Positions 13,934-56,511 of a stretch of 64,000 nucleotides of DNA are shown piece by piece. Under the pieces are notes generated by a model. That model was not told the origin of the DNA. It searched no databases and was given only the letters and a program-made list of their open reading frames with translations. A program made the position numbers and the translations under genes. This stretch comes from an archaeon (GTDB taxonomy: Archaea; Nanobdellota; Nanobdellia; Pacearchaeales; GW2011-AR1), in assembly GCA_018694115.1 (NCBI GenBank), contig JABHNB010000009.1:11116-75115 (forward strand), given 5' to 3'. Position 1 is the stretch's first letter. Each line of letters starts with the position of its first letter.

Positions 13934-14051
13934 TGAGCCTACGGAGATTTGAACTCCGGACCTCTGGCTCTCTTCGAGTGAAGTGAGCTAACGTTCTAGC
14001 GAACATCCATCTTATAAGACCAGCGCTCTAACCTGGCTGAGCTATAGGCTC
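13934..14051 (-). tRNA. Intron-containing tRNA; manual fold gives anticodon UAU (tRNA-Ile UAU) with an intron of about 43 nt after position 37
   Basis: Acceptor GAGCCUA/UAGGCUC. D-stem GCUC/GAGC. Anticodon stem CUGGU/GCCAG with loop CUUAUAA interrupted by the insert. T-arm CGGAG-UUCAAAU-CUCCG. Discriminator A. Confidence 0.55.
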
Positions 14052-46020: not shown

Positions 46021-47025
46021 TTAGTTCCCGTTATTCTGAGCAGCCATTGCAGCTTCATATTCCGCAATAGTTGTTCTTGCCAAATCATTTAGGCCTTCAA
46101 CCATTGGAATAACCTGTTCAAGAGCATTCTGGGAGAATTCTCCGATACTTGCTCTTTTGTTCTGCATCCATTGCTGAAGTTCCTGAACCTTTTCCTGAGC
46201 CGGTTCTGGACCAAGTGCTTCCAATTTGCTCCTAACTTCTTGATTAAGGGCCATAATGCCTTCTGCCTGATCATTACCATAGGCATCAGCTAACTTAATA
46301 TTATCTGCAACGAACTTAGGGAATCCGTATTCTCCAACTGTTCTAATTGCCTTATTCTTTGCATTAATTCCAAATTCATCAACTATTCTATCCTTGAATG
46401 GCGTAAAAAATGCCATTTCAATAGGTTTAAGATTCTCTGCCTTACCTGCAAAATAAGCCTCAGGATCATCAGAAATGGCCTTCTGTTCAGCCCTATAAAA
46501 TTCAATAGCATCAACAACTGGATCAAAACTAGCCCCCCTACCTTTCTTAAAAGTCGGCATTGTAAATACCATGTTGAATAGACCTTCTCCTCTTCCTTCC
46601 ATCCATGCGATTTCAGCAAGAGCATTAGCATATTTAACTCCGTATTGAGTCATTCCATCTTGAGCAACCATAACACTACCTTTTCTAGCAGCCTCTACTT
46701 GTGCGGACGGAAGTCCTGCCAAAGCATCTTTATTACCAAGCATTATTTCCGAGAAAGTAGCAATATCTGCTCCAGTTATTTCTTTAGCTTGATCGTATCC
46801 TCTTGCAAAAGTTCCTGCACTCCATCCAGAATCTGCATTTAATGGAGCATAGGCTAGATCAACTAATCCTCCGTCTTCATTAACAAATTGTGTTGGTGTT
46901 ATGAATCTTTCATAATCCCTCACGTTTTCATTTCCATTAACCATGTTTATTTTAGAAATATAGACTTTATAAACCTTTCGGTGTGTTGTATCTGGTGAGG
47001 GGTAACAGAATGCGCATCTAATCAA
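46021..47025 (-). CDS. Hypothetical protein co-transcribed with ppsA
   Basis: Start overlaps the ppsA stop by 4 nt. 334 aa with no recognisable motif. Confidence 0.45.
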   Translation of the reverse strand: MIRCAFCYPSPDTTHRKVYKVYISKINMVNGNENVRDYERFITPTQFVNEDGGLVDLAYAPLNADSGWSAGTFARGYDQAKEITGADIATFSEIMLGNKDALAGLPSAQVEAARKGSVMVAQDGMTQYGVKYANALAEIAWMEGRGEGLFNMVFTMPTFKKGRGASFDPVVDAIEFYRAEQKAISDDPEAYFAGKAENLKPIEMAFFTPFKDRIVDEFGINAKNKAIRTVGEYGFPKFVADNIKLADAYGNDQAEGIMALNQEVRSKLEALGPEPAQEKVQELQQWMQNKRASIGEFSQNALEQVIPMVEGLNDLARTTIAEYEAAMAAQNNGN

Positions 47026-49712
47026 CTAAAAATATCTTCCTTCTTCCTTTCTTCAACTATTTCGATATCACTTGGCTCTGAATTTGGCCGTTCAAATTCT
47101 TCAGTATTAGTTTCAGCAGGTTCCTTATCCACTACTTCAATATCACTTTCTGGAGCCCTAGCTTCTTCCCCATTTCTTTCTGATCCTTCGCTAGAACTAT
47201 CAACAACTTCAATATCATTTTCTTTGTCAACCTGCCTAACTCTCTCTGCTTCATCTTCTACTCGCTCATTCAATTCTTTCTCAACAGATTCCCTATCTCC
47301 GATCGGTTCAATTACACTTTCTCCTCCCGCATTTTCTGGGTTTTCTTCTCTCCGAGGATTATTTTCTACAACCTTATTTCCTTCATTTTCTACAACCCCC
47401 CCATTATTTTCCTTAATGTTTCCATCAACATCTCCACCCTTATCGCCCCCCTCCAATCTCAAAACTAACTCCGAGATTTCCTTAGCAACATCCGCATTAA
47501 CAGAGATAGAATCAATTCCCTGCTTAACTAAGAATTCAACCATCTCTTTTTTAGAACCTGCCTGCCCACAAATAGAAGTCTCAACCCCCTGCTTTCTACA
47601 TTCACGAATCACTCGGGATAATTGTTTCAAAACCGCCCAGTTCATTTCATCATAGATATATTGAACATCTTCATTTCCTCGATCAATTGCAAGAGTATAC
47701 TGCGTCAAATCATTTGTTCCAAATGAAATAAAATCAAGTCCAACTTCACAAAGATCTTTTATCAAGATTGAAGCGGCAGGAGTCTCAATCATAACTCCAA
47801 ATTGAACATTACTAATTCCCATCTCTTCAAAAATCTTCTTAGCTGCCTTTACCTCATCAACAGAAATAACTTGGGGAAACATAACTCCAAATTTATGTCC
47901 CTTATCTGCAAGTTCCTTAATTGCTCCAAGCTCTGCCTTAAAGATTCCAAGATGTTTCAGTGAAAACCTAATCCCGTGATTTCCTAACATTGGATTCTTT
48001 TCAATCTCTTTTGGGGCACCCTTTAGATTAGCATATTCATCACTTCGGATATCTGAGGAACGGATCCAGATTGGCTTTCCAATAAATGTTTCAGCAATCT
48101 TTCCAAGACCCTTAACTAACATGGCCTTATACTCTTCTAAGGTTCCTTCAGCCTCATAAGCAATCGGGTGTTTTCCTGCAGATGCGATTAAACCTTCCAA
48201 TCGAACAAGTCCAACACCGTCCGCATTTGTCTTAGCCGCTCGCTCAGCATATTCTGGTAAGTCAACCATAACTTTTATTCGAGTTTTAGTTTTAACAATT
48301 GGCAAGATTTCAACCTTCTTACTCTGAGCTCTTCCAGAATAAACCTTACCCCTAAAACCATCCACTGTAACTTCCTGACCATCTTCCAAAACCTCTAACG
48401 CATTATCTGTCCCAACAACTGCGGGAATACCCATTTCACGAGATACAATCGCTGCATGTGCTGTGATCCCCCCCTCACTAGTAATAATCGCCGCAGCCTT
48501 TTGCATAGTTACAACCATGTCCGGATTAGTCATTGCAGTAACAAGAACATCACCTTTTCGAATCTTGCCCAAATCTTCCATAGACTTAACAATTTTAACA
48601 ACTCCTGAAGAAATCCCTGGAGATGCGGCAAGTCCTTCCGTTAAAACTGGTCCTTCAAGTTCGTCTCCCTCACCCTCTTCCTTGCCATCACTCCCTGCTT
48701 TCAAGGTCGTAATCGGCCGAGTCTGTAAAATATATATATCCTCATTCTCAATTGCAAATTCAATATCTTGCGGTTTCTTGTAATGTTCTTCTAATTTAAT
48801 CGCATATTCTGCCAACTGCTTCAATTCATAAGTTTTCAAAACTCTCTGTCCGGATTTTTCTGGGCTTAATTGAACTGTTTTTGTAATTCCTGATGCATCT
48901 CTAACAATTGCAATTTTCTTCTCAGCAATTTTCTCATCTACAAGATCAAAAGCCCTAGAAACTGTTTGCTGGTCTGGTTTGATTTTCCCAGAAACAATAC
49001 CTTCCCCTTGTCCAAAGACAGATTCTACCAAGACATCGTCCGTGTTTTTTACTGGATGTCTAGAAAAAATAACTCCGGACTTATCTGAATTAATCATTTT
49101 CTGAACAATCGCGGCAATACCCACAAGATCTTCAAATCCTTTCTTCTTTCGGTAATATATCGACCGGGCTGTAAAAATAGATGCAAAAACTCGCTTGACT
49201 TTTTCAATCAAATCATCATTTCCCTTAACATTGATAAAACTTTCTTGCTGTCCTGCAAAACTTGCATCTCCCAAATCCTCTGCAGTGGCCGAACTTCTAA
49301 CTGAAACAAAAACAGGCTCACGAGCAGATTTCAAAATGGCCAATGCTCCAGGGGAACTTTCAAGACCGCTCAAATCAACATTAAAATTATCATAGGCTTC
49401 CAAAATTTCACTTCTAAGATCCTCGGGCATTTCCGCAGCAACCATGATTTCCCTAATCTCCTTAGCTTTGCTCGAAAGACCATCAGTATCATCAACATCA
49501 ATCTTATTCAAAATCTCTCGAATCTGATCCTTAATCTCCGTCTTTTTCAAAAAATGATCAAATGCCTTAGTTGTGACAACAAAAGCCTGGGGAACCGGAA
49601 ATTTTGAATTAAACATTTCACCAAGATTAGCCCCCTTACCTCCTGCGAGCTTAACATCTTTCTTAGATAAATCGGAAAGCCATGCAATGTACCCCTCTTT
49701 CATAAATTCCAA
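47022..49712 (-). CDS. ppsA: Phosphoenolpyruvate synthase (pyruvate, water dikinase) with ~150 aa acidic C-terminal extension
   Basis: PPDK_N N-terminus LAGGKGANLGEM. Phospho-His domain. PEP-utilising TIM barrel. Extra acidic tail with three DIE(V/I)V(D/E) repeats. Confidence 0.85.
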   Translation of the reverse strand: MEFMKEGYIAWLSDLSKKDVKLAGGKGANLGEMFNSKFPVPQAFVVTTKAFDHFLKKTEIKDQIREILNKIDVDDTDGLSSKAKEIREIMVAAEMPEDLRSEILEAYDNFNVDLSGLESSPGALAILKSAREPVFVSVRSSATAEDLGDASFAGQQESFINVKGNDDLIEKVKRVFASIFTARSIYYRKKKGFEDLVGIAAIVQKMINSDKSGVIFSRHPVKNTDDVLVESVFGQGEGIVSGKIKPDQQTVSRAFDLVDEKIAEKKIAIVRDASGITKTVQLSPEKSGQRVLKTYELKQLAEYAIKLEEHYKKPQDIEFAIENEDIYILQTRPITTLKAGSDGKEEGEGDELEGPVLTEGLAASPGISSGVVKIVKSMEDLGKIRKGDVLVTAMTNPDMVVTMQKAAAIITSEGGITAHAAIVSREMGIPAVVGTDNALEVLEDGQEVTVDGFRGKVYSGRAQSKKVEILPIVKTKTRIKVMVDLPEYAERAAKTNADGVGLVRLEGLIASAGKHPIAYEAEGTLEEYKAMLVKGLGKIAETFIGKPIWIRSSDIRSDEYANLKGAPKEIEKNPMLGNHGIRFSLKHLGIFKAELGAIKELADKGHKFGVMFPQVISVDEVKAAKKIFEEMGISNVQFGVMIETPAASILIKDLCEVGLDFISFGTNDLTQYTLAIDRGNEDVQYIYDEMNWAVLKQLSRVIRECRKQGVETSICGQAGSKKEMVEFLVKQGIDSISVNADVAKEISELVLRLEGGDKGGDVDGNIKENNGGVVENEGNKVVENNPRREENPENAGGESVIEPIGDRESVEKELNERVEDEAERVRQVDKENDIEVVDSSSEGSERNGEEARAPESDIEVVDKEPAETNTEEFERPNSEPSDIEIVEERKKEDIFS

Positions 49713-49939: not shown

Positions 49940-50175
49940 TGACTTTCGGTCAAATCTACGAAATAAAAAACACAAAGTATGTCCTACAACATATATGATA
50001 CAATATCTATATTGCAATATACTATATTGCACCACATACATTGGGACAAATAAAAAACCAAACTTTGCCCTAAGGGCACCAAATCATCCGAATTTTAAGA
50101 CCGAATTTTAAGAAATAAAAAATGCAAATAAAAAACCAAACCCAAAATCTACGAAATAAAAAACACATAATCAAA
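49940..50175. repeat. AT-rich repeat zone with repeated aaatctacgaaataaaaaacaca units at the compositional boundary
   Basis: Two copies of a ~23-nt unit (about 49952 and 50138) plus further aaataaaaaacaca copies. Seen directly. Confidence 0.45.
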
Positions 50176-50276
50176 TAAAAAACACAAATCCAAAGGCGAG
50201 GAGCCCAAACAGTCAGTAAACTGAAAGTTGGGCCCCTGCCTTGGATACTACGTCTTGACCACCCAGTTAATTGGAC

Positions 50277-50738
50277 TTACTTGGGCGGATACAGAATCAT
50301 AAGAATAACCAGGAAGAAGCAGACGGATATCACAACAAGCGAAGGAACGCTCGGAATGTAATATCCTTCGAGTCTTTCAATCTCCTGGAAACTGAAGACG
50401 CCACGCCCTTTTTCTCCACAATCCACATGGTACCTGTAACCTTTTTCTGCGCCACCAAAATCCCAATCCCGAATAACGCCTATCTTCCCTTCGGCAGCGG
50501 TATCCCGTTGGACGATCTTGATTTGATCATTGATGTGATACGCCGGGCCCCACCACCAGCAGAGGAAGTAAACTCCTGCAAGGAGGAGAATCAGGACCGC
50601 CCACCCCCGGGGAGATATCTCATTCAACTTTTTGGCAACCGCCCTTAGGGGACGGTAAACGACCAGCAAGGCAATGAACCCCCCAATCGTGGCCAACACC
50701 TGCCAATGATCACCGGCTATTTTCAAAAGTTCATCCAT
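50277..50738 (-). CDS. Three-TM membrane protein, tandem paralogue 1 of 4
   Basis: D(H/N)WQVLAT N-terminal TM, W-rich TM2 followed by GPAYHIND, a soluble ~65 aa domain (GxIGxIRDW...F.EI.RL.G), and a C-terminal TM. Confidence 0.55.
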   Translation of the reverse strand: MDELLKIAGDHWQVLATIGGFIALLVVYRPLRAVAKKLNEISPRGWAVLILLLAGVYFLCWWWGPAYHINDQIKIVQRDTAAEGKIGVIRDWDFGGAEKGYRYHVDCGEKGRGVFSFQEIERLEGYYIPSVPSLVVISVCFFLVILMILYPPK

Positions 50739-50836
50739 ACGTCACTTCCTTTCATTCTGTCAATTCTCTTTCTTCTAGCTCATGCACACACTGCACGAGT
50801 AATGCAAGTAAAAAATACTCCCCCTGTCAAGGGCAA

Positions 50837-51322
50837 TTAATCCAACTTATCCCGGACGATCACCAGGAAGCTTCCCAGAATAAATATGATGAAGGATGGA
50901 ATTCCGGGGATATAGGGGCCACCCAAACTCCTTATCTCCGCGAACAGAAACTTATGCTTTGCCCCCCCACACTCCACAAAGTAGGAGTAGTGGGCCATTT
51001 CAAGTTTCCAATCTCTGACCACTCCAATTTTCCCGTTGAGCTCGCTTTGCAGTCGCGTAATCTCAACTTCATCATTGGCGCCATAGACTGGGCCCAACCA
51101 CCAGCTGAAACAATAAACTATCACTGCAAGGAAAACTATCCCGAAGATCGTCCACATCAGCCACTTTCCGGCTACGCGCCCCCGATCAATAGCTTTTCTT
51201 ACCAAACGATAGCCCACAACCAGAACAGCGCAGGTAGCCAACGTGGCCAGCACTTGCCAATTGTCACAGGCCATTTTCCAAAGATCATTCATAACTTCAT
51301 TTCCTTTCATTTCGATTATCAC
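50837..51322 (-). CDS. Three-TM membrane protein, tandem paralogue 2 of 4
   Basis: Same architecture: NWQVLATLA, GPVYGAND, GKIGVVRDW. Confidence 0.55.
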   Translation of the reverse strand: MIIEMKGNEVMNDLWKMACDNWQVLATLATCAVLVVGYRLVRKAIDRGRVAGKWLMWTIFGIVFLAVIVYCFSWWLGPVYGANDEVEITRLQSELNGKIGVVRDWKLEMAHYSYFVECGGAKHKFLFAEIRSLGGPYIPGIPSFIIFILGSFLVIVRDKLD

Positions 51323-51335
51323 AACCTCCCAAGGG

Positions 51336-51400
51336 AGAGCTAGTCATCCGGCCCACTGCCAAACAATCTAGCTCCCCCTTACAATCGACCTCTTAATCGA
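51336..51400. repeat. Conserved ~55-nt intergenic element (copy 1) with an 11-bp inverted repeat gggagagctag...ctagctccccc
   Basis: Near-identical to the copy at 51946-52010. Each lies upstream of a paralogue gene. Confidence 0.45.
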
Positions 51401-51417
51401 GAGAACGACAACTACGC

Positions 51418-51912
51418 CTAGTCACTCGCGCCTTCTTTCAGCTTCAGGGAATCCATATTCGCGGCGAGAGCTATCAGGCTTCCGATTATCATCAGGATAA
51501 GCGGAAAAACACTCGGGATATAGCAGGGGCCTTCAAACCTTTTGAGTTCCTGGAAGTGGAATTTTCCCAGTTCTTTCGCCCCATAATCCACATGATAGAT
51601 GAATCCCCCTGGACGAGGACTTTCCCAATCACGGATTATTCCGACCTTTCCTTCCTCGGGGGTATCTCGTTGGACGATCGTGACCTTTTCGTTGATACCA
51701 TACACCGGTCCAAGGCCCCATGCGAGGAAGTAAATCACTGCCGAGACAATTACCATCCATACGAGGGTCTTCAACACCCAACCCGTAGTGAGATTCACAT
51801 ACCTGGAAGCAACCTTCTTTCCCAAGCGATAAATCACGAAGAGGGAGGCGAAGACAGCCAATGTGGCAAATACCTGCCAGTTGTCGCTCACCATGTTAAC
51901 AAACTCTTTCAT
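51418..51912 (-). CDS. Three-TM membrane protein, tandem paralogue 3 of 4
   Basis: Same architecture: NWQVFATLA, GPVYGINE, GKVGIIRDW. Confidence 0.55.
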   Translation of the reverse strand: MKEFVNMVSDNWQVFATLAVFASLFVIYRLGKKVASRYVNLTTGWVLKTLVWMVIVSAVIYFLAWGLGPVYGINEKVTIVQRDTPEEGKVGIIRDWESPRPGGFIYHVDYGAKELGKFHFQELKRFEGPCYIPSVFPLILMIIGSLIALAANMDSLKLKEGASD

Positions 51913-51945
51913 ATCTCGTTCCTTTCGTTCAATTCATCAAAACCC

Positions 51946-52010
51946 CCAAAAGGGAGAGCTAGTCATCAAGCCCAATGCCCAACAATCTAGCCCTCCCAAG
52001 GGTAACGCCA
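51946..52010. repeat. Conserved ~55-nt intergenic element (copy 2), gggagagctag...ctagccctccc
   Basis: See copy 1. A second, different conserved element (gcacacactgcacgagtaatgcaagta-like) lies upstream of paralogues 1 and 4. Confidence 0.45.
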
Positions 52011-52013
52011 TCG

Positions 52014-52502
52014 TCAATATCCGAAGTTCGAAGAGGATTTATTCAGGACGGGTAATCGCAAGTAGATCACCACACAAACCCCGACGGCCATTAAAACAAG
52101 GATTGGAATGCCCGGGATATGGGGCCCGTTTAACCTCTTCAGGTGCTCAAAACGGAGGCCGTAGGGTTCATCTCCCTTACAATAAACAGAATACACATAG
52201 CCATTGCCCGGAGCGAGACAATTCCAGGATCTGATTATCCCAGTTTCACCATTTACGTCGCTTCGGGGATAAACTATCTCGACTTCGTCGTTGATATGAT
52301 ACGCCGGACCCCACCACCAGGTAAAGAAATAGATCCCGGCTACCACAACAACTGCCAACATGACCGTCTTCAGGAACCATCCACGTGGCAATCCCCGGTA
52401 CTTGGAAACAACCCTCCTTACCACACGATAGCCCATCAGCAAGGCGACACATCCTGCCAGGGTGGCAAACACTTGCCAATGTCCAACAATAAACTCTTTC
52501 AT
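52014..52502 (-). CDS. Three-TM membrane protein, tandem paralogue 4 of 4
   Basis: Same architecture: HWQVFATLA, WWWGPAYHINDE, GETGIIRSW. Confidence 0.55.
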   Translation of the reverse strand: MKEFIVGHWQVFATLAGCVALLMGYRVVRRVVSKYRGLPRGWFLKTVMLAVVVVAGIYFFTWWWGPAYHINDEVEIVYPRSDVNGETGIIRSWNCLAPGNGYVYSVYCKGDEPYGLRFEHLKRLNGPHIPGIPILVLMAVGVCVVIYLRLPVLNKSSSNFGY

Positions 52503-52593
52503 AACTCGTTCCTTTCATTATCTATCTTCATCCCATCTTGCCCGCACACTATGCACGAATAAAACAAGTAGGAAGTAAGTCTTCAGGCGGCGG

Positions 52594-53883
52594 TCAGGAA
52601 GGAGAGGCCAGTTTTATCAGCTTGACCTTTATTTCATCCTTGCTATCCCACCCATATTCGGCCGCTTCCGCAAAGAGATCCAGCCACCATTCGAAGTCGC
52701 CGTCACCGAGTTCCATCAACTTTCCAAGGAAGATTTCTCCGAGATTGTCAGATTCTCCATCTCCGAGCATCTTGTCGTAGGTCTCTTTCCAGAGATTGAA
52801 GTCGCTACACTCCAACTCTCTGAATATTTCGATTATCCTATCCTCAGAAGGCGAGGAACCCTCTGCGTTTGTGAAGAACTCCCACCATTTGTCCGGGCCC
52901 CAATTCCTGGGTCGTTCTTCTATCTGGGTGAGGATCAGTCTTTGCCTGTCATGATCTCCATCAAACATCCCGAAGATAGCCTCCCAGTTCTCAAAGGATA
53001 CCTCTTCTCTCCCTTCGAGTCTTTTAATGAGGGCATCACACATATTTTCCCAGCCATTATCGTTTGCTTCTTCCAGGAATCCTTTCAATGTCTCGAAATC
53101 TTCCTGGGGGAGTTCGGCCACATTTTCTTCGAGAGCATTGTCCGTAGTTTCATCATCGGCCACCCTATAGGCCTCCATGAGTTGCCCCATGGTGGTCACT
53201 CTCTTGACCAGTTCTTCACCGATCCTTTCCTCGTGCTGATTGTAGCAGTCCCCACGAAGGGTGCACAACTGTTCAAGGGAGGGATTGGAAGATAAGAGCA
53301 GATCGAGGAAAAGATCTGCGACCATCTTCTTGATGCCCATCTCTTCCTTATCGGCCTCTCCAGATTCTGTATAGATGGTTTTTGCCTGATCGAAAGTTTG
53401 GATGGATCCGCCTACATTTTCGAGAGCGGTCTGTCTGAGGGGAGATCCAGCTTCAGCCACTTCAAGGACAGACTCCCAATCTTCCGGAGTCCTTGCCCTT
53501 CGTGAGATCTGCTCCAGGACTGAACTTTTGAGCGAGGCGTCTCCAGACCTTATGGCCGCATGGCAAAGCTTGATCCAGTTTCCGAATTCCGATCCCACAC
53601 GTTGGAGCATCTGCGTTCCAGCGTGCCGGTGAAGCTCTGACAAATCTTCATTGCCTATCGAGAGTTCGAACAGTCTGAGGTTATTCTCGAATGTTGAAGC
53701 CAATCTGGCGGCTTCACCAAGGGCGCGTTTCTTGAGGGGCTCTTCGGCCTCTCCACTGTAGTACACCTCGATCCACCGATCGAAATTCAGATCGGGGGGA
53801 GGCGCGTTATCTTGCACATTCCAGATTGCAAGAGCTTTCATTACTCCGACCTGGGCGGCCAGAGATTCAAATGACATTTCCAT
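52594..53883 (-). CDS. Acidic all-alpha hypothetical protein (429 aa)
   Basis: Glu/Asp/Trp-rich with internal repeats and no catalytic motif. Confidence 0.45.
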   Translation of the reverse strand: MEMSFESLAAQVGVMKALAIWNVQDNAPPPDLNFDRWIEVYYSGEAEEPLKKRALGEAARLASTFENNLRLFELSIGNEDLSELHRHAGTQMLQRVGSEFGNWIKLCHAAIRSGDASLKSSVLEQISRRARTPEDWESVLEVAEAGSPLRQTALENVGGSIQTFDQAKTIYTESGEADKEEMGIKKMVADLFLDLLLSSNPSLEQLCTLRGDCYNQHEERIGEELVKRVTTMGQLMEAYRVADDETTDNALEENVAELPQEDFETLKGFLEEANDNGWENMCDALIKRLEGREEVSFENWEAIFGMFDGDHDRQRLILTQIEERPRNWGPDKWWEFFTNAEGSSPSEDRIIEIFRELECSDFNLWKETYDKMLGDGESDNLGEIFLGKLMELGDGDFEWWLDLFAEAAEYGWDSKDEIKVKLIKLASPS

Positions 53884-53950
53884 AAGGATTACCTTCTTTC
53901 GTATTATTCTACTTTTTCGATCTATCCCAACACGATGTCAGGACTCTGTT

Positions 53951-54466
53951 TTATCCGTCACTCCGACCTTCAATTTTCTCCAGCTTTTGGATGACTGCAC
54001 GCCGGACTTCGCTTCCCTGGGGGGTTCCGAAATAGACATAGGTGGCCTCCCGTTCCCCTTCAGCTTGTTCGAAGTCTTGCCAGCACTGCGGGATCCATTT
54101 TTGGCGGATAGCCCTCCTTATATCTGAATCTTCCGGAGTGCAAAGATACAGGATCTTCAGTCCCAGTGCACTGTTGGCAGCAAGGCACCTGGACAAATGG
54201 ATCCTTTCAATGCGATTCACAAACTCCGGACTGACCTTCCCGCCGAGGATAACACGAAGGTAGAGCTCGAAAAGCTGTTCCTTGTTCTTCGCATTTTCCA
54301 AATGGCCGATAAAGGTCAGATCATCCATCTCTTGGAGATCCTGAACAAGGCGAATCTGGGAATTCATTAAAGCTTCCCTCGAAAAGCTTTCTTCCTTCAC
54401 CGAACACCCCGGAGACGTCAGGGATCCACAACAGACAACAACCAACAACCAACAAGGCAGTTTCAT
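53951..54466 (-). CDS. Lipoprotein-like secreted protein
   Basis: Probable start at MKLPCWLLVVVCCGSLTSPGCS (signal peptide with a Cys-containing lipobox-like end). The track ORF extends to 54535. Confidence 0.4.
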   Translation of the reverse strand: MKLPCWLLVVVCCGSLTSPGCSVKEESFSREALMNSQIRLVQDLQEMDDLTFIGHLENAKNKEQLFELYLRVILGGKVSPEFVNRIERIHLSRCLAANSALGLKILYLCTPEDSDIRRAIRQKWIPQCWQDFEQAEGEREATYVYFGTPQGSEVRRAVIQKLEKIEGRSDG

Positions 54467-54563
54467 AACAATTCTCCCTTCAGAGAACAAGGAACAGCGC
54501 CGGGCACCCCCCAATAAAACATTACCCGGCCCCATTCAGGTTAGTGAAAAATCAGGCCATCAA

Positions 54564-55154
54564 TTATTCGGCATCGGCAGTCGGAATGTCGCTGAGATCG
54601 ATCGGAGATCCGTCCGCTCCGCGGTAGGTCCTGAGGAGGATGTCCTCTTCGATGTGGCGTTCGTCGCCATTCGGAAGTTTGATTCGGATTACTCCTTCCT
54701 TATCGCGGATAGCGAGAACCACGTCTTTTTCGTCACGCTTCACGATCCCAGTATAGTCATCGACCATGCGACCAGCCGGCGAAAGATGATCATCCACGAA
54801 GTCAGTGTCGGCAGTGTACTGGTCACCGCACCCCTGCTCGCCTGCTGCTATAAGGATATCGTCCAGGTTATCTACCGTGGGCGGAGTCTCCATCATATCC
54901 AGAAGTGCCTCGGCGATTTCGCCAGGAACTTCGTTGAGGATAACAACGCCTTTTTCACCGTCTGCGCCCTGCCAGGTTCCGTCGCCGTCACCGTCAGTTT
55001 CGTTGAGAACGAGAATCACCGGACGGTCGTTATTCTGGCCATATCCGGAGACTTCCATATCCTGTTCGAATGCCACAACGACATCACTCGCGGGAACCTT
55101 GAAGATAAGCTTGCGGGTTGCGGAAACGATTTTAAGACCTTTATCAAAATTCAC
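54564..55154 (-). CDS. Acidic hypothetical protein (196 aa)
   Basis: Asp/Gly-rich with no motif. Confidence 0.4.
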   Translation of the reverse strand: MNFDKGLKIVSATRKLIFKVPASDVVVAFEQDMEVSGYGQNNDRPVILVLNETDGDGDGTWQGADGEKGVVILNEVPGEIAEALLDMMETPPTVDNLDDILIAAGEQGCGDQYTADTDFVDDHLSPAGRMVDDYTGIVKRDEKDVVLAIRDKEGVIRIKLPNGDERHIEEDILLRTYRGADGSPIDLSDIPTADAE

Positions 55155-55407
55155 AATATTCTCCTTTCTCCGTTTTGGGGAGAAAAAAAGTAAGGCCCTA
55201 ACTCTTGTCAGAACCTAAAGATTCCAGCAACTTGCCAGGATCCTTTTAATGTAATGCCATGTTACGTCCCAAAAACTTATCTCCTAATCCTGAGGAGTGT
55301 TTCGAATGTGCTTCACAAAACTCCAGATCGCAATCACTCCAGAAAAAGTGGCCCCCGAAGCGATTAAAATCCCTGCAATCTGCTGTGTCATTTCTACTCC
55401 TTTCTGG

Positions 55408-56511
55408 TCAGCTCTCCTTTGAGCCAAACCATTTACGATAGATTTCATCGTATTTACCGCTTTTCCGAATCTTCAACAAGGCGCGGTTAATCTCTTCTCG
55501 AAGATTGCTTCCTTCAGGTACGGCGAAGCCGTAGTATTGTTTGTCGAAAATCGGACCGACAACCCCCACTTCATCCGGGTGTTGCTGGGCGAAGAAAAGG
55601 ACACTTGGGGAATCGAAGACAACCGCATCAACCTTCTCCTTAAGCAGGAGATCATACGATTCTTGGATAGAAGGTGTAGCAACCACCTTAGCTCCAAGGC
55701 CCTTAAGTGTCGTAACACTTGTAGTGCCTTGTGCAGTGGCGACCGTCTTTCCTCTGAGATCTCCCGGATGGTTGATCACCGATTCAATGGCCTCGATTTC
55801 CCGGACCGTAAAAGCTGTGATGATCGGAGCAGAGACAAGGCCGACAATAACGCAGCCGTTGAGGAAGAGGGGGATGGTTAAGAGCCTTCCCCAAGTCTTC
55901 TTGGGATAGATATCTCCAAAACCTATGGTGGTCTTAATTGCCCAGACACACCAGCATGCATCGAAGAATCCTTTCCAATCGTCTGCGATTACGTCTGCAC
56001 CCTGTTCAGCCCGCCACAACAAGAATCCCCAAACGAAGAATCCAATGAAGAGGATTCCCAAAAGCCCTGCCATCTCCCAGTTGAACAGTCTTCGGAAAAT
56101 AGACGAGAGGATCGAGGCCTTTTTCTTCTGACCTTTGACAACGATCCTCAATCCGGAATTCATATAGTGGTGTGAGAAGTCGAAATTCTCTTCCCGATCC
56201 GCGGTAATAAAGATCCCGGACACTGCCACATCAACCTTCCCTGCCTTAACATCCTGCAGAAGTTGGTCAAATTCCGAACCCTTGTACTGCTTGTACTCAA
56301 TCTCCCAGTTGAGTTCTCCAGCAATCGCCTCAATTATTTCGATGTCTGATCCCGAAAGGCCAGACTTCGTTGAGGAACTTTCCATCACGCATGGGCGGAA
56401 GATTCCCGCACCAATAGTGATTTTCTTTTTTTCCTGCGCTTGCACCGGGGAAACGACTGCCGCCAGAACAAGTACACCAATAACAATCAGAAAGGCGGTT
56501 TTTTGCTTCAC
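55408..56511 (-). CDS. GluR0-type ligand-gated potassium channel: periplasmic amino-acid-binding (SBP_bac_3) domain split by a K+-channel pore module
   Basis: Signal peptide. SBP lobe 1 (KVDVAVSGIFITADREENFDFSHHY). TM. P-loop with K+ selectivity filter TTIGFGD. TM. SBP lobe 2 (TVATAQGTTS...VDAVVFDSP...YGFAVPEGS). Confidence 0.75.
   Translation of the reverse strand: MKQKTAFLIVIGVLVLAAVVSPVQAQEKKKITIGAGIFRPCVMESSSTKSGLSGSDIEIIEAIAGELNWEIEYKQYKGSEFDQLLQDVKAGKVDVAVSGIFITADREENFDFSHHYMNSGLRIVVKGQKKKASILSSIFRRLFNWEMAGLLGILFIGFFVWGFLLWRAEQGADVIADDWKGFFDACWCVWAIKTTIGFGDIYPKKTWGRLLTIPLFLNGCVIVGLVSAPIITAFTVREIEAIESVINHPGDLRGKTVATAQGTTSVTTLKGLGAKVVATPSIQESYDLLLKEKVDAVVFDSPSVLFFAQQHPDEVGVVGPIFDKQYYGFAVPEGSNLREEINRALLKIRKSGKYDEIYRKWFGSKES

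What the first reader, a model, noticed from the sequence alone, without database searches (positions are those of the whole stretch)
50277..52502. Four tandem paralogous three-TM proteins at ~590-bp periodicity in two alternating subtypes
The proteins are 150-165 aa and share D/N-WQV-ATLA TM1, a W-rich TM2 ending in GP(A/V)Y(H/G)IN(D/E), a ~65-aa soluble domain (G.(I/V)G(I/V)(I/V)R(D/S)W … F.E(I/L)(K/E)RL.GP.IP) and a C-terminal TM. Paralogues 1 and 4 versus 2 and 3 form two subtypes, as do their upstream elements. Tandem arrays of small membrane paralogues are typical of immunity-protein or receptor/sensor cassettes.
Basis: seen in the sequence. Interest (0 to 1): 0.6.

Follow-up and report, generated by a model that had tools for sequence, protein, structure and literature searches.

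The report
Four orphan archaeal membrane protein paralogues
Four neighbouring, anciently duplicated genes at the edge of a foreign-looking DNA island in a tiny marine archaeon encode a membrane protein family found nowhere else in public data, each probably showing a small SH3-like barrel on the outside of the cell; what they do is unknown.

Summary
Four minus-strand genes (50277-50738, 50837-51292, 51418-51912, 52014-52502) encode 151-164 aa paralogues that are 40-45% identical. Each has three hydrophobic helices and a roughly 60-aa beta domain between helices 2 and 3.

Two details are wrong. The proteins do not split into two subtypes (quartet-informative sites 6:7:6). The order of upstream element types is A-B-B-A, not alternating.

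- **Upstream DNA:** it does come in two kinds. A 25-nt core precedes P4 and P1. A 46-nt hairpin precedes P3 and P2, is 88% identical between copies, and shows only pair-preserving changes.
- **Family:** it is an orphan. Profile searches of 1.84 billion and 5.8 billion proteins return only these four genes, from near-clonal marine Pacearchaeota-like (DPANN) contigs.
- **Context:** the genes end a GC-rich island of at least 23.7 kb (GC3 0.55 against 0.32 in the host). The island lies upstream of ppsA and holds five orphan tandem paralogue families. A related species has an unrelated GC-rich island at the same site.

No toxin, phage or defence signature was found nearby. My best guess, at low confidence, is that these are envelope-anchored binding or adaptor subunits.

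The parts
52014..52502 (-). P4, first gene of the array, 162 aa. Predicted 3-TM protein with an SH3-like barrel between TM2 and TM3.
   Evidence: ORF; alignment A1; hydropathy; exact protein present in NCBI, JGI and ENA as 'hypothetical protein'.
51418..51912 (-). P3, 164 aa paralogue.
50837..51292 (-). P2, 151 aa paralogue. Start chosen at the ATG 8-10 nt after the shared GAAAGGAA motif. In-frame upstream starts at 51310 and 51322 would give 157 or 161 aa.
   Evidence: Databases carry 145, 151, 157 and 161 aa calls of this gene.
50277..50738 (-). P1, last gene of the array and of the island, 153 aa paralogue. This is the protein that was modelled.
51952..51997 (-). Intercistronic hairpin between P4 and P3. 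It has a 20-bp stem, a 5-nt loop and one bulged A, and is followed by UUUUGGGGGUUUUG.
   Evidence: Repeat family D4; RNA fold z = -4.1; pair counts.
51333..51378 (-). Intercistronic hairpin between P3 and P2, 88% identical to the other copy.
   Evidence: RNA fold z = -5.0. All 20 pairs are kept in both copies, with 3 one-sided changes and 1 two-sided change (U.G to G.U). These are the only two copies in the window and in all fetched loci.
52545..52569 (-). A-type upstream core before P4 (ACTTGTTTTATTCGTGCATAGTGTG). T-rich and promoter- or operator-like; that role is inferred.
   Evidence: It is found only here and before P1; 0 copies are expected by chance.
50785..50809 (-). A-type upstream core before P1 (ACTTGCATTACTCGTGCAGTGTGTG). 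It is preceded by a small hairpin plus a T6 run (50810-50833) directly after the P2 stop codon.
   Evidence: terminator-like site at 50833-50820.
50746..50755 (-). ATGAAAGGAA leader motif (Shine-Dalgarno-like) ending 7 nt before the P1 start codon. Equivalent copies lie at 51301-51310, 51919-51928 and 52509-52518.
   Evidence: Repeat family D8.
49961..50183 (-). Cluster of five exact GTTTTTTATTT motifs directly downstream of P1, at the GC boundary and upstream of the co-directional ppsA gene. Read as an oligo-T terminator or insulator array (inferred).
   Evidence: 5 copies, all here; 0.27 expected in 64 kb. The same motifs occur in independent assemblies, and similar T-motifs occur at the equivalent boundary of L012.
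50200..64000 (-). GC-rich accessory island that contains the array. It continues for at least 9.9 kb beyond the end of the window.
   Evidence: GC 0.45-0.53 against 0.31-0.42; GC3 0.52-0.61 against 0.25-0.39; continuation in L005; five tandem paralogue families.

Best explanation
**What it is (well supported).** The array is four old tandem duplicates of a lineage-restricted small membrane protein. It sits at the ppsA-proximal end of a compositionally foreign accessory island of at least 23.7 kb, in a marine Pacearchaeota-like DPANN archaeon.

Each protein is predicted to insert N-terminus out and C-terminus in. TM1 is followed by a short basic cytoplasmic loop, then TM2, then an SH3-like five-strand barrel held against the outer face of the membrane by TM2 and TM3, and finally a short cytoplasmic tail.

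**Expression (inferred).**
- The T-rich A element before P4 drives P4-P3-P2 as one mRNA.
- The two conserved intercistronic RNA hairpins in that mRNA act as processing or stability elements.
- A hairpin plus T-run after P2 ends that transcription unit.
- A second A element drives P1.
- The GTTTTTTATTT cluster stops read-through into ppsA.

**Function (inferred, low confidence).** The best-conserved parts are TM1 (WQVxAT) and the WWWGPxYxIN junction at the outer leaflet. The loop, TM3 and much of the barrel surface vary. This suggests a common membrane-embedded contact with diversified exposed barrels. I therefore read the four as envelope-anchored binding or adaptor subunits. They could be alternative or co-assembling partners of one membrane complex, serving cell-surface or envelope interactions of an episymbiotic cell. 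I do not read them as enzymes, transporters or immunity proteins.
For: - **Paralogy and purifying selection.**
  - ORFs are intact; pS is 0.66-0.78 (saturated) and dN is 0.45-0.57.
  - 27 alignment columns are invariant.
- **Topology.** Loop 1 has 4-6 K/R against 0-1 D/E, while the N-terminus is net acidic or neutral. All four proteins have three hydrophobic segments.
- **Fold.**
  - The AF2 barrel has pLDDT 72-85, with five strands and a short helix before the last one.
  - Foldseek gives the same hits.
- **Conservation pattern.** Mean pairwise identity is 59% in TM1, 71% at the junction, 29% in loop 1 and 33% in TM3.
- **Hairpins.**
  - The two copies are 88% identical, against 54-58% for the flanking coding DNA.
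  - Fold z-scores are -5.0 and -4.1.
  - All 40 cells are paired and every stem difference preserves pairing. There are many G.U pairs, so only the sense-strand RNA folds this well.
- **Island.**
  - There is a step in GC and GC3.
  - The junction is identical in four independent assemblies: L002, L003, L004 and the 385-kb JGI contig.
  - The same ppsA-upstream site holds different genes in an 87% relative and an unrelated GC-rich island in a 76% relative.
- **Membrane and secreted neighbours.** These include a lipoprotein-like 194-aa protein, a GluR0-like channel, and 220-aa and 494-aa membrane proteins.
- **Host identity.** GluRS and ppsA relatives are named Pacearchaeota or Nanoarchaeota, and an intron-bearing tRNA is present.
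- **Precedent.** Laterally acquired islands and surface-protein kits have been described in a cultured DPANN archaeon (PMC5498576).
Against: - No homologue with a known function exists, so the functional part rests only on architecture and context.
- The AF2 model has low overall confidence (mean pLDDT 64, pTM 0.46, four-sequence alignment), and the packing of the TM helices is not reliable.
- Topology rests on the positive-inside rule alone.
- The SH3-like fold is used for very many unrelated functions. The best structural matches (PsaE, NdhS, PetP) sit on the cytoplasmic side of their membrane complexes.
- No expression data were available. The promoter and terminator assignments are sequence readings only.
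- Hairpin covariation rests on two copies, so the shuffle control is uninformative (242/500).
- The other end of the island was not reached, so an integrase or viral genes could lie there.
Confidence: 0.35

Rival explanations
1. Immunity-protein array. The four paralogues would each neutralise a variant of a membrane-acting toxin made by this cell or by competitors, as in bacteriocin or polymorphic-toxin loci.
For: The proteins are small, membrane-embedded, tandemly arrayed and diverged. They lie in a variable accessory island. A ParE toxin gene sits next to the equivalent island in L012.
Against: - No toxin, effector, secretion or defence domain was detected in the island proteins tested.
- The adjacent 429-aa protein is acidic (net -46) and all-helical.
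- Four other unrelated families in the island are also tandemly duplicated, so the array form is not specific to immunity genes.
- The family is absent from all other genomes, whereas immunity families usually travel widely.
- The strongest conservation lies in TM1 and the junction, which is not the pattern expected for fast-evolving interfaces.
Confidence: 0.12
2. Cargo of an integrated virus, plasmid or other mobile element. The proteins would serve the element, for example in superinfection exclusion, holin-like membrane permeabilisation or envelope remodelling.
For: - The island is compositionally foreign, nearly all on one strand and made of orphans.
- It sits at a hotspot that carries a different GC-rich island in a related species.
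- Three TMs with an N-out/C-in topology is the class I holin topology (my own knowledge).
- There is a weak Phage_holin_2 hit at E = 0.2.
Against: - There are no PHROGs hits for the four paralogues or the six neighbours scanned.
- There is nothing in IMG/VR, phage records or plasmid records.
- No integrase, capsid, terminase or replication gene occurs in the 23.7 kb examined.
- The holin hit is far below threshold, and holins lack a 60-aa folded loop domain.
- The island is fixed and identical in at least nine contigs from different samples.
Confidence: 0.15
3. Inverted topology. The SH3-like barrel would face the cytoplasm and dock a soluble partner (a small redox protein or a nucleic acid) onto the membrane, as PsaE, NdhS and PetP do on their complexes.
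Against: - Sequence identity to these proteins is 12-20%, and there is no HMM match to any of these families.
- Loop 1 carries 4-6 K/R and almost no acidic residues, which puts it in the cytoplasm and the barrel outside.
- KOW and Tudor domains score nearly as well, so the match is to the fold class and not to a family.
Confidence: 0.1
4. Decaying or functionless duplicates in a junk-rich island.
For: The family is an orphan with no known function. In one low-coverage variant contig, three of the four differences over 10.2 kb are non-synonymous changes in P1, including one in the invariant WWW motif.
Against: - All four ORFs are intact after enough time to saturate synonymous sites, and dN is well below dS.
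- The leader motif, the hairpins and 27 invariant residues are all conserved.
- Variants in sister low-coverage assemblies have the T>G/A>C signature of sequencing error.
Confidence: 0.04

Closest known systems
SH3-like small beta-barrels of the PsaE / NdhS / PetP, KOW and Tudor type (structural class)
   Different: No sequence or HMM relationship was found. Those domains are free-standing or soluble. Here the barrel is inserted between two transmembrane helices and is predicted to face outwards.
Short NfeD proteins (such as B. subtilis YuaF): a membrane anchor plus a small beta-barrel, partnered with SPFH/stomatin genes
   Same: The proteins are small, with several TM helices and a five-strand barrel. 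An SPFH-related (MVP shoulder) gene lies in the same island.
   Different: - There is no PF01957 hit.
- No NfeD structure appears among the listed structural hits; all are SH3-like, not OB.
- The barrel is internal, not C-terminal.
- The MVP-like gene is 6.7 kb and eight genes away, so the two are not an operon pair.
   Same: Both are small membrane proteins with a TM hairpin followed by a beta-rich domain.
   Different: There is no HMM hit. The predicted fold has five strands and no capping helix, so it is not a PH domain. There is also a third TM after the domain.
Laterally acquired genomic islands with surface-protein genes in DPANN archaea (for example 'Ca. Mancarchaeum acidiphilum' Mia14, PMC5498576)
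   Same: The setting is a compositionally distinct island in a reduced episymbiont-type genome that carries strain-specific membrane and secreted proteins.
   Different: No donor was identified and no island gene has a homologue elsewhere. The island is dominated by ancient tandem paralogue families rather than by large PKD/YVTN surface proteins.
P0007, a 229-aa metagenomic protein made of four tandem ~57-aa repeats
   Same: It is the only non-self sequence match to the barrel (hmmsearch E = 2.4e-5; hhalign probability 73%, 27% identity over 62 columns). It shares the ND.V.I...G.IG.I...Y.V...F pattern.
   Different: It is soluble, has no TM helices, lies on a 1.16-kb contig with no context and has no known function. 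The match is marginal.

Membership tests
bPH_2 / DUF304 (PF03703) | Match to the Pfam HMM | tested here: not met
   No hit at E <= 1 for the full-length proteins or at E <= 10 for the isolated soluble domains.
bPH_2 / DUF304 (PF03703) | PH-like fold: a seven-strand sandwich capped by a C-terminal helix, after two TM helices | tested here: not met
NfeD (PF01957) | HMM match and a C-terminal OB-fold barrel | tested here: not met
NfeD (PF01957) | Operon partnership with an SPFH/Band_7 gene | tested here: not met
   The nearest SPFH-related gene (MVP_shoulder, 59191-61947) is separated from the array by eight genes.
SH3-like small beta-barrel (fold class, not a homologous family) | Five-strand barrel of about 60 aa with a short helix between strands 4 and 5, and strong structural matches to solved SH3-like domains | tested here: met
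PsaE (PF02427) / NdhS / PetP | Sequence-profile membership | tested here: not met
   No Pfam hit. A PDB sequence-profile search gave nothing better than E = 0.36. Structural identity is 12-20%.
Toxin-immunity cassette (polymorphic toxin or bacteriocin type) | A recognisable toxin or effector gene adjacent to the immunity gene(s) | tested here: not met
   No toxin domain was found. All 9 neighbouring island proteins in the window were scanned with Pfam; 3 with NCBIfam and 6 each with PHROGs and PADLOC. The test is limited by the sensitivity of the profiles, because all the neighbours are orphans.
Toxin-immunity cassette (polymorphic toxin or bacteriocin type) | Protection against a cognate toxin | not testable with these tools
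   This needs co-expression experiments.
Class I holins | Three TMs (N-out, C-in), under about 130 aa with short loops, next to a lysin gene, with an HMM match | tested here: not met
   Only the topology fits. The Phage_holin_2 hit is E = 0.2 at 12 bits against a 32-bit cut-off. The TM2-TM3 loop holds a 60-aa folded domain. No lysin was found among the neighbours.
Provirus or integrated mobile element | Hallmark genes (integrase, capsid, terminase, replication) and an att or tRNA boundary | tested here: inconclusive
   None were found in the 23.7 kb seen, and nothing was found in IMG/VR. The far end of the island could not be reached.
Genomic island (horizontally acquired accessory region) | Compositional break from the flanking genome, and variable content at the same site in relatives | tested here: met
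   - The GC step is from 0.38 to 0.49 and the GC3 step from about 0.32 to 0.56.
- The junction was reproduced in independent assemblies.
- Relatives at 87% and 76% ppsA identity carry other genes there, one of them an unrelated island with GC 0.58 against 0.45.

The most novel reading that the evidence does not exclude
The four paralogues would be subunits of a previously unknown heteromeric envelope complex specific to one marine Pacearchaeota lineage. The complex would be carried on a horizontally acquired 'surface kit' island, together with an MVP/SPFH-like scaffold, a ligand-gated channel and other duplicated orphan families. Its outward-facing SH3-like barrels would dock the symbiont to a component of its host cell. 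The TM-TM-barrel-TM architecture would then define a new class of archaeal adhesion or adaptor protein, and the conserved intercistronic hairpins would set subunit stoichiometry.
Probability: 0.1. Interest if true: 0.7.

Novelty: new variant of a known kind. Interest (0 to 1): 0.4.

Why it matters
DPANN archaea depend on other cells, yet the molecules at that interface are almost entirely unknown. A membrane protein family that is confined to one globally recurring marine lineage, kept in four copies under purifying selection, and placed in an acquired island full of envelope proteins is a reasonable candidate for such an interface component.

It also adds an undescribed way of deploying the SH3-like barrel, clamped to the membrane at both ends.

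The wider island may be the more valuable lead. It is GC-rich, encoded almost entirely on one strand and consists of orphan genes in five tandem paralogue families. It carries a eukaryote-sized vault-like protein. It occupies a hotspot that holds an unrelated GC-rich island in a sister species.

Against this, orphan genes are the rule in these genomes, and nothing here yet points to a testable biochemical activity.

Tried and rejected
**Searches that found no family for the four proteins**
- Pfam, NCBIfam, PHROGs and PADLOC gave no hits.
- The 5.8-billion-protein search returned only the four genes themselves.
- The exhaustive profile search of 1.84 billion representatives returned self hits, two low-complexity artefacts (P0006, P0008) and the marginal P0007.
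- Scans of GTDB species genomes, IMG/VR and JGI metagenome contigs with the family alignment found nothing.
- tblastn against phage and plasmid records found nothing.
- A PDB sequence-profile search gave only noise.

**Other checks**
- *Extra copies:* tblastn of the four proteins against the window, L005, L010 and L012 found no extra or degenerate copies.
- *Island origin:* I scanned GTDB genomes and IMG/VR with the MVP-like protein and found nothing.
- *429-aa neighbour:* single-sequence AF2 gave pLDDT 46.5, so I did not use it for a fold search.
- *AFDB50 fold search:* this library was not available.
- *Selection between strains:* this was not possible, because every fetched contig covering the array is 100% identical apart from low-coverage contigs with error-like changes.
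- *Rfam:* there was no hit for the hairpins or the boundary.
- *Literature:* I found no description of this family or island.

**Readings rejected**
- Assembly duplication: the DNA copies are only 54-58% identical.
- Chimeric junction: four independent assemblies agree.
- Two protein subtypes: the quartet counts are 6:7:6.
Full report
**1. What is in the sequence**

The region 50277-52502 holds four intact ORFs on the minus strand:
- P1: 50277-50738, 153 aa.
- P2: 50837-51292, 151 aa. Longer in-frame starts exist at 51310 and 51322.
- P3: 51418-51912, 164 aa.
- P4: 52014-52502, 162 aa.

Transcription runs P4, P3, P2, P1. Gene starts are 590, 620 and 554 bp apart.

The four proteins align over their whole length with 27 invariant columns. 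Pairwise identity is 40.4-45.2%, and BLASTP E-values between copies are 1e-28 to 1e-36. The coding DNA is only 54-58% identical. Synonymous differences are saturated (pS 0.66-0.78), while dN is 0.45-0.57. These are therefore old duplicates kept under purifying selection. They are neither an assembly artefact nor recent copies.

**2.

The proteins do not form two subtypes. Alignment columns that support P1P4|P2P3, P1P2|P3P4 and P1P3|P2P4 number 6, 7 and 6. P2-P3 identity is no higher than that of the cross pairs. The relationship is star-like.

The upstream DNA, by contrast, really is of two kinds.
- *A type.* P4 and P1 are preceded by a shared core, ACTTG..TTA.TCGTGCA..GTGTG, identical at 20 of 25 positions. 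It is found nowhere else in the window.
- *B type.* P3 and P2 are preceded by a 46-48 nt element that is 88% identical between its two copies.

The order of types is A-B-B-A, so it is not alternating.

All four genes share an ATGAAAGGAA leader. The A(A)AGGAA part sits 7-10 nt before the start codon and reads as a Shine-Dalgarno-like site.

**3. The B elements are RNA hairpins**

Each B element folds into a 20-bp stem with a 5-nt loop. Against shuffled sequences, the spacers give z = -5.0 and -4.1.

Counting pairs across the two copies gives 40 of 40 cells paired. All four stem pairs that vary between the copies (five base differences) stay paired: three change on one side (A-U to G.U, or G-C to G.U) and one changes on both sides (U.G to G.U). 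The stems contain many G.U pairs, so only the sense-strand RNA forms the full structure.

Two copies are too few for statistics (shuffle control 242/500). Even so, a non-coding element at 88% identity between genes whose synonymous sites are saturated argues for constraint, or for conversion.

No Rfam family matches, and there are no further copies in the window or in any fetched locus.

After P2 there is a small hairpin followed by a T6 run, and then the second A element. My reading, which is inference only, is two transcription units: P4-P3-P2, with the intercistronic hairpins acting as processing or stability elements, and P1 alone.

**4. The protein**

Hydropathy gives three membrane segments in each copy. 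The loop between the first two carries 4-6 K/R and 0-1 D/E, whereas the N-terminus is acidic or neutral. By the positive-inside rule the topology is N-terminus out, loop 1 in, soluble domain out, C-terminus in.

AlphaFold2 on the four-sequence alignment gives a modest model (mean pLDDT 64). The soluble domain is better, at pLDDT 72-85. It has five strands and a short helix before the last strand.

Conservation is highest in TM1 (59% mean pairwise identity; WQVxAT) and at the TM2-barrel junction (71%; W-W/G-W/L-G-P-x-Y-x-x-N). It is lowest in the cytoplasmic loop (29%) and in TM3 (33%). Under the predicted topology, the two conserved parts lie together at the outer leaflet.

**5. The family is an orphan**

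- Pfam, NCBIfam, PHROGs and PADLOC give nothing significant for the whole proteins or the isolated domain.
- A profile search of 5.8 billion clustered proteins returns five entries, all versions of these same four genes.
- An exhaustive HMMER search of 1.84 billion cluster representatives returns the same, plus two low-complexity artefacts and one marginal hit. That hit, P0007, consists of four soluble tandem repeats of a similar ~57-aa unit (hhalign probability 73%) and lies on a 1.16-kb contig with no context.
- GTDB species genomes, IMG/VR, JGI metagenome contigs, phage records, plasmid records and PDB sequences give nothing.
- The exact proteins are present in NCBI, JGI, ENA and Logan on about 17-19 contigs each, always as 'hypothetical protein'.

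**6. Organism and population**

The low-GC part of the window carries archaeal housekeeping genes and an intron-containing tRNA. Its GluRS and PEP synthase are closest to proteins named Pacearchaeota or Nanoarchaeota. The host is therefore a marine DPANN archaeon.

The array and its flanks are 100% identical in contigs from several independent samples and assemblers. The population is near-clonal, so no between-strain selection test is possible.

One low-coverage contig (L003) differs at 4 positions in 10.2 kb. Three of these are non-synonymous changes in P1 residues 50-77. Variants in a sister low-coverage assembly carry a T>G/A>C error signature. I therefore do not interpret these differences.

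**7. Context: the end of a foreign island**

GC rises from about 0.38 to about 0.49 at roughly 50.2 kb. GC3 is 0.25-0.39 in 20 host genes and 0.52-0.61 in all 13 island genes, including the four paralogues.

The junction with ppsA is present in four independent assemblies, so it is not chimeric.

The island continues for at least 9.9 kb beyond the window (L005, GC 0.46-0.55), which gives at least 23.7 kb in total. Almost all of its genes are on one strand, and almost all lack any Pfam hit.

It contains five tandem paralogue families, each about 33-43% identical:
- this four-gene family;
- a 494/453 aa pair;
- a 238/242 aa pair;
- a 161/161 aa pair;
- a 283/270 aa pair.

Tandem duplication is thus a property of the island as a whole.

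Recognisable genes are few:
- a GluR0-like SBP_bac_3 plus Ion_trans_2 channel;
- a 918-aa protein with MVP shoulder and vault-repeat matches;
- a lipoprotein-like 194-aa protein.

Several soluble island proteins are strongly acidic.

In the closest relative (ppsA 87% identical), the same upstream position holds different genes. In a 76% relative it holds another GC-rich island (0.58 against 0.45) with no protein in common. The site upstream of ppsA is therefore a hotspot for variable, compositionally foreign DNA.

Between P1 and ppsA lie five exact GTTTTTTATTT motifs within 223 bp, where 0.27 would be expected in the whole window. Related T-rich motifs occur at the equivalent boundary of the relative. 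Archaeal termination uses oligo-T tracts (my own knowledge), and ppsA is co-directional with the island genes. I therefore read the cluster as a terminator or insulator array.

**8. Explanations**

*Immunity-cassette reading.* It finds no support.
- There is no toxin or defence domain in any neighbour tested.
- The adjacent 429-aa gene encodes an acidic, all-helical protein.
- The array form is shared with unrelated families in the island.

*Mobile-element reading.* It remains open, because the far end of the island was not reached. However, no viral or integrative hallmark gene was seen in the 23.7 kb examined, and the island is fixed in all contigs.

*Inverted topology.* A cytoplasmic, PsaE-like docking barrel is disfavoured by the charge distribution.

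*My best explanation, at low confidence for the functional part.* These are envelope-anchored adaptor or binding subunits. They share a conserved membrane-interface core and carry diversified outward-facing barrels. They form part of an acquired set of envelope genes in an episymbiotic archaeon. Acquired islands and strain-specific surface proteins have been described in a cultured DPANN archaeon (PMC5498576).

**9. Verdict**

Its architecture (TM-TM-SH3-like barrel-TM) matched nothing in the libraries searched here.

However, orphan membrane proteins are common in DPANN genomes, and no specific activity can yet be proposed. Interest is moderate. The island as a whole is the stronger lead.

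Noticed in passing
window 50200-64000 and L005 1-9950: The GC-rich island (at least 23.7 kb, GC3 about 0.56 against 0.32 in the host) is encoded almost entirely on one strand. Nearly all of its genes are orphans, and it holds five separate tandem paralogue families of 33-43% identity. Several soluble proteins are very acidic: net -46 for the 429-aa protein and -45 for the 918-aa protein.
   Followed up: partly
L012 1-9100 (ENA ERZ27315536 k141_364014) and the 28-kb contig of JGI 3300072015: The site upstream of ppsA is a hotspot. A 76% relative has an unrelated island there (GC 0.58 against 0.45) with its own tandem paralogues (194/204 aa). An 87% relative has yet other genes there, including Band_7, DNA ligase and TrmB.
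   Followed up: partly
window 59191-61947 (-): A 918-aa protein matches MVP_shoulder (E = 9e-25) and Vault_3. A recent survey describes archaeal MVP-like proteins as compact, about 320-400 aa (PMC13607799). This one is as long as the eukaryotic major vault protein. No relative was found in GTDB species genomes or IMG/VR.
   Followed up: partly
window 49961-50183 (-): Five exact GTTTTTTATTT motifs lie within 223 bp at the island/host boundary. An exact 23-nt direct repeat occurs at 49952-49974 and 50145-50167, and an AT-rich palindrome lies at about 50008-50030. Related motifs occur at the same boundary in L012 (9100-9450). This could be a terminator array, a regulatory region or an integration scar.
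   Followed up: partly
L001 (NCBI GCA_018675375.1, JABGYI010000662.1): This 10.5-kb contig contains only island sequence and is 100% identical to the window. It sits in a MAG whose proteins NCBI labels 'Candidatus Bathyarchaeota archaeon' (HN588_*). This is probably mis-binning by composition, but it could hint at the donor lineage.
   Followed up: no
window 55408-56511 (-): A GluR0-like ligand-gated channel (periplasmic-binding SBP_bac_3 domain split by an Ion_trans_2 pore, with a signal peptide) lies inside the island of a DPANN archaeon.
   Followed up: no
window 47022-47420 (C-terminal end of the ppsA gene, 47022-49712) and L002: The PEP synthase carries an acidic low-complexity C-terminal extension of about 130 aa. 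This is the only part of the locus that differs between assemblies: 76 mismatches and 8 gaps in L002, all within 47559-47874. Relatives have extensions of different lengths.
   Followed up: no
window 50510-50590 (P1 residues 50-77), contig L003: Three of the four differences in 10.2 kb of a variant contig are non-synonymous changes clustered in P1 (I50T, W63R in the invariant WWW motif, Q77E). The assembly has 4.7x coverage, so sequencing error cannot be excluded.
   Followed up: partly
window 13934-14051 (-): Rfam finds a tRNA gene with an intron that ARAGORN misses. This is consistent with an archaeal host.
   Followed up: no
L012 8876-9064: The last gene of the unrelated island in the sister species, at the same ppsA-proximal end, is a 62-aa ORF with a KOW/SH3-like sequence pattern and no TM helix. 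This may be coincidence.
   Followed up: no
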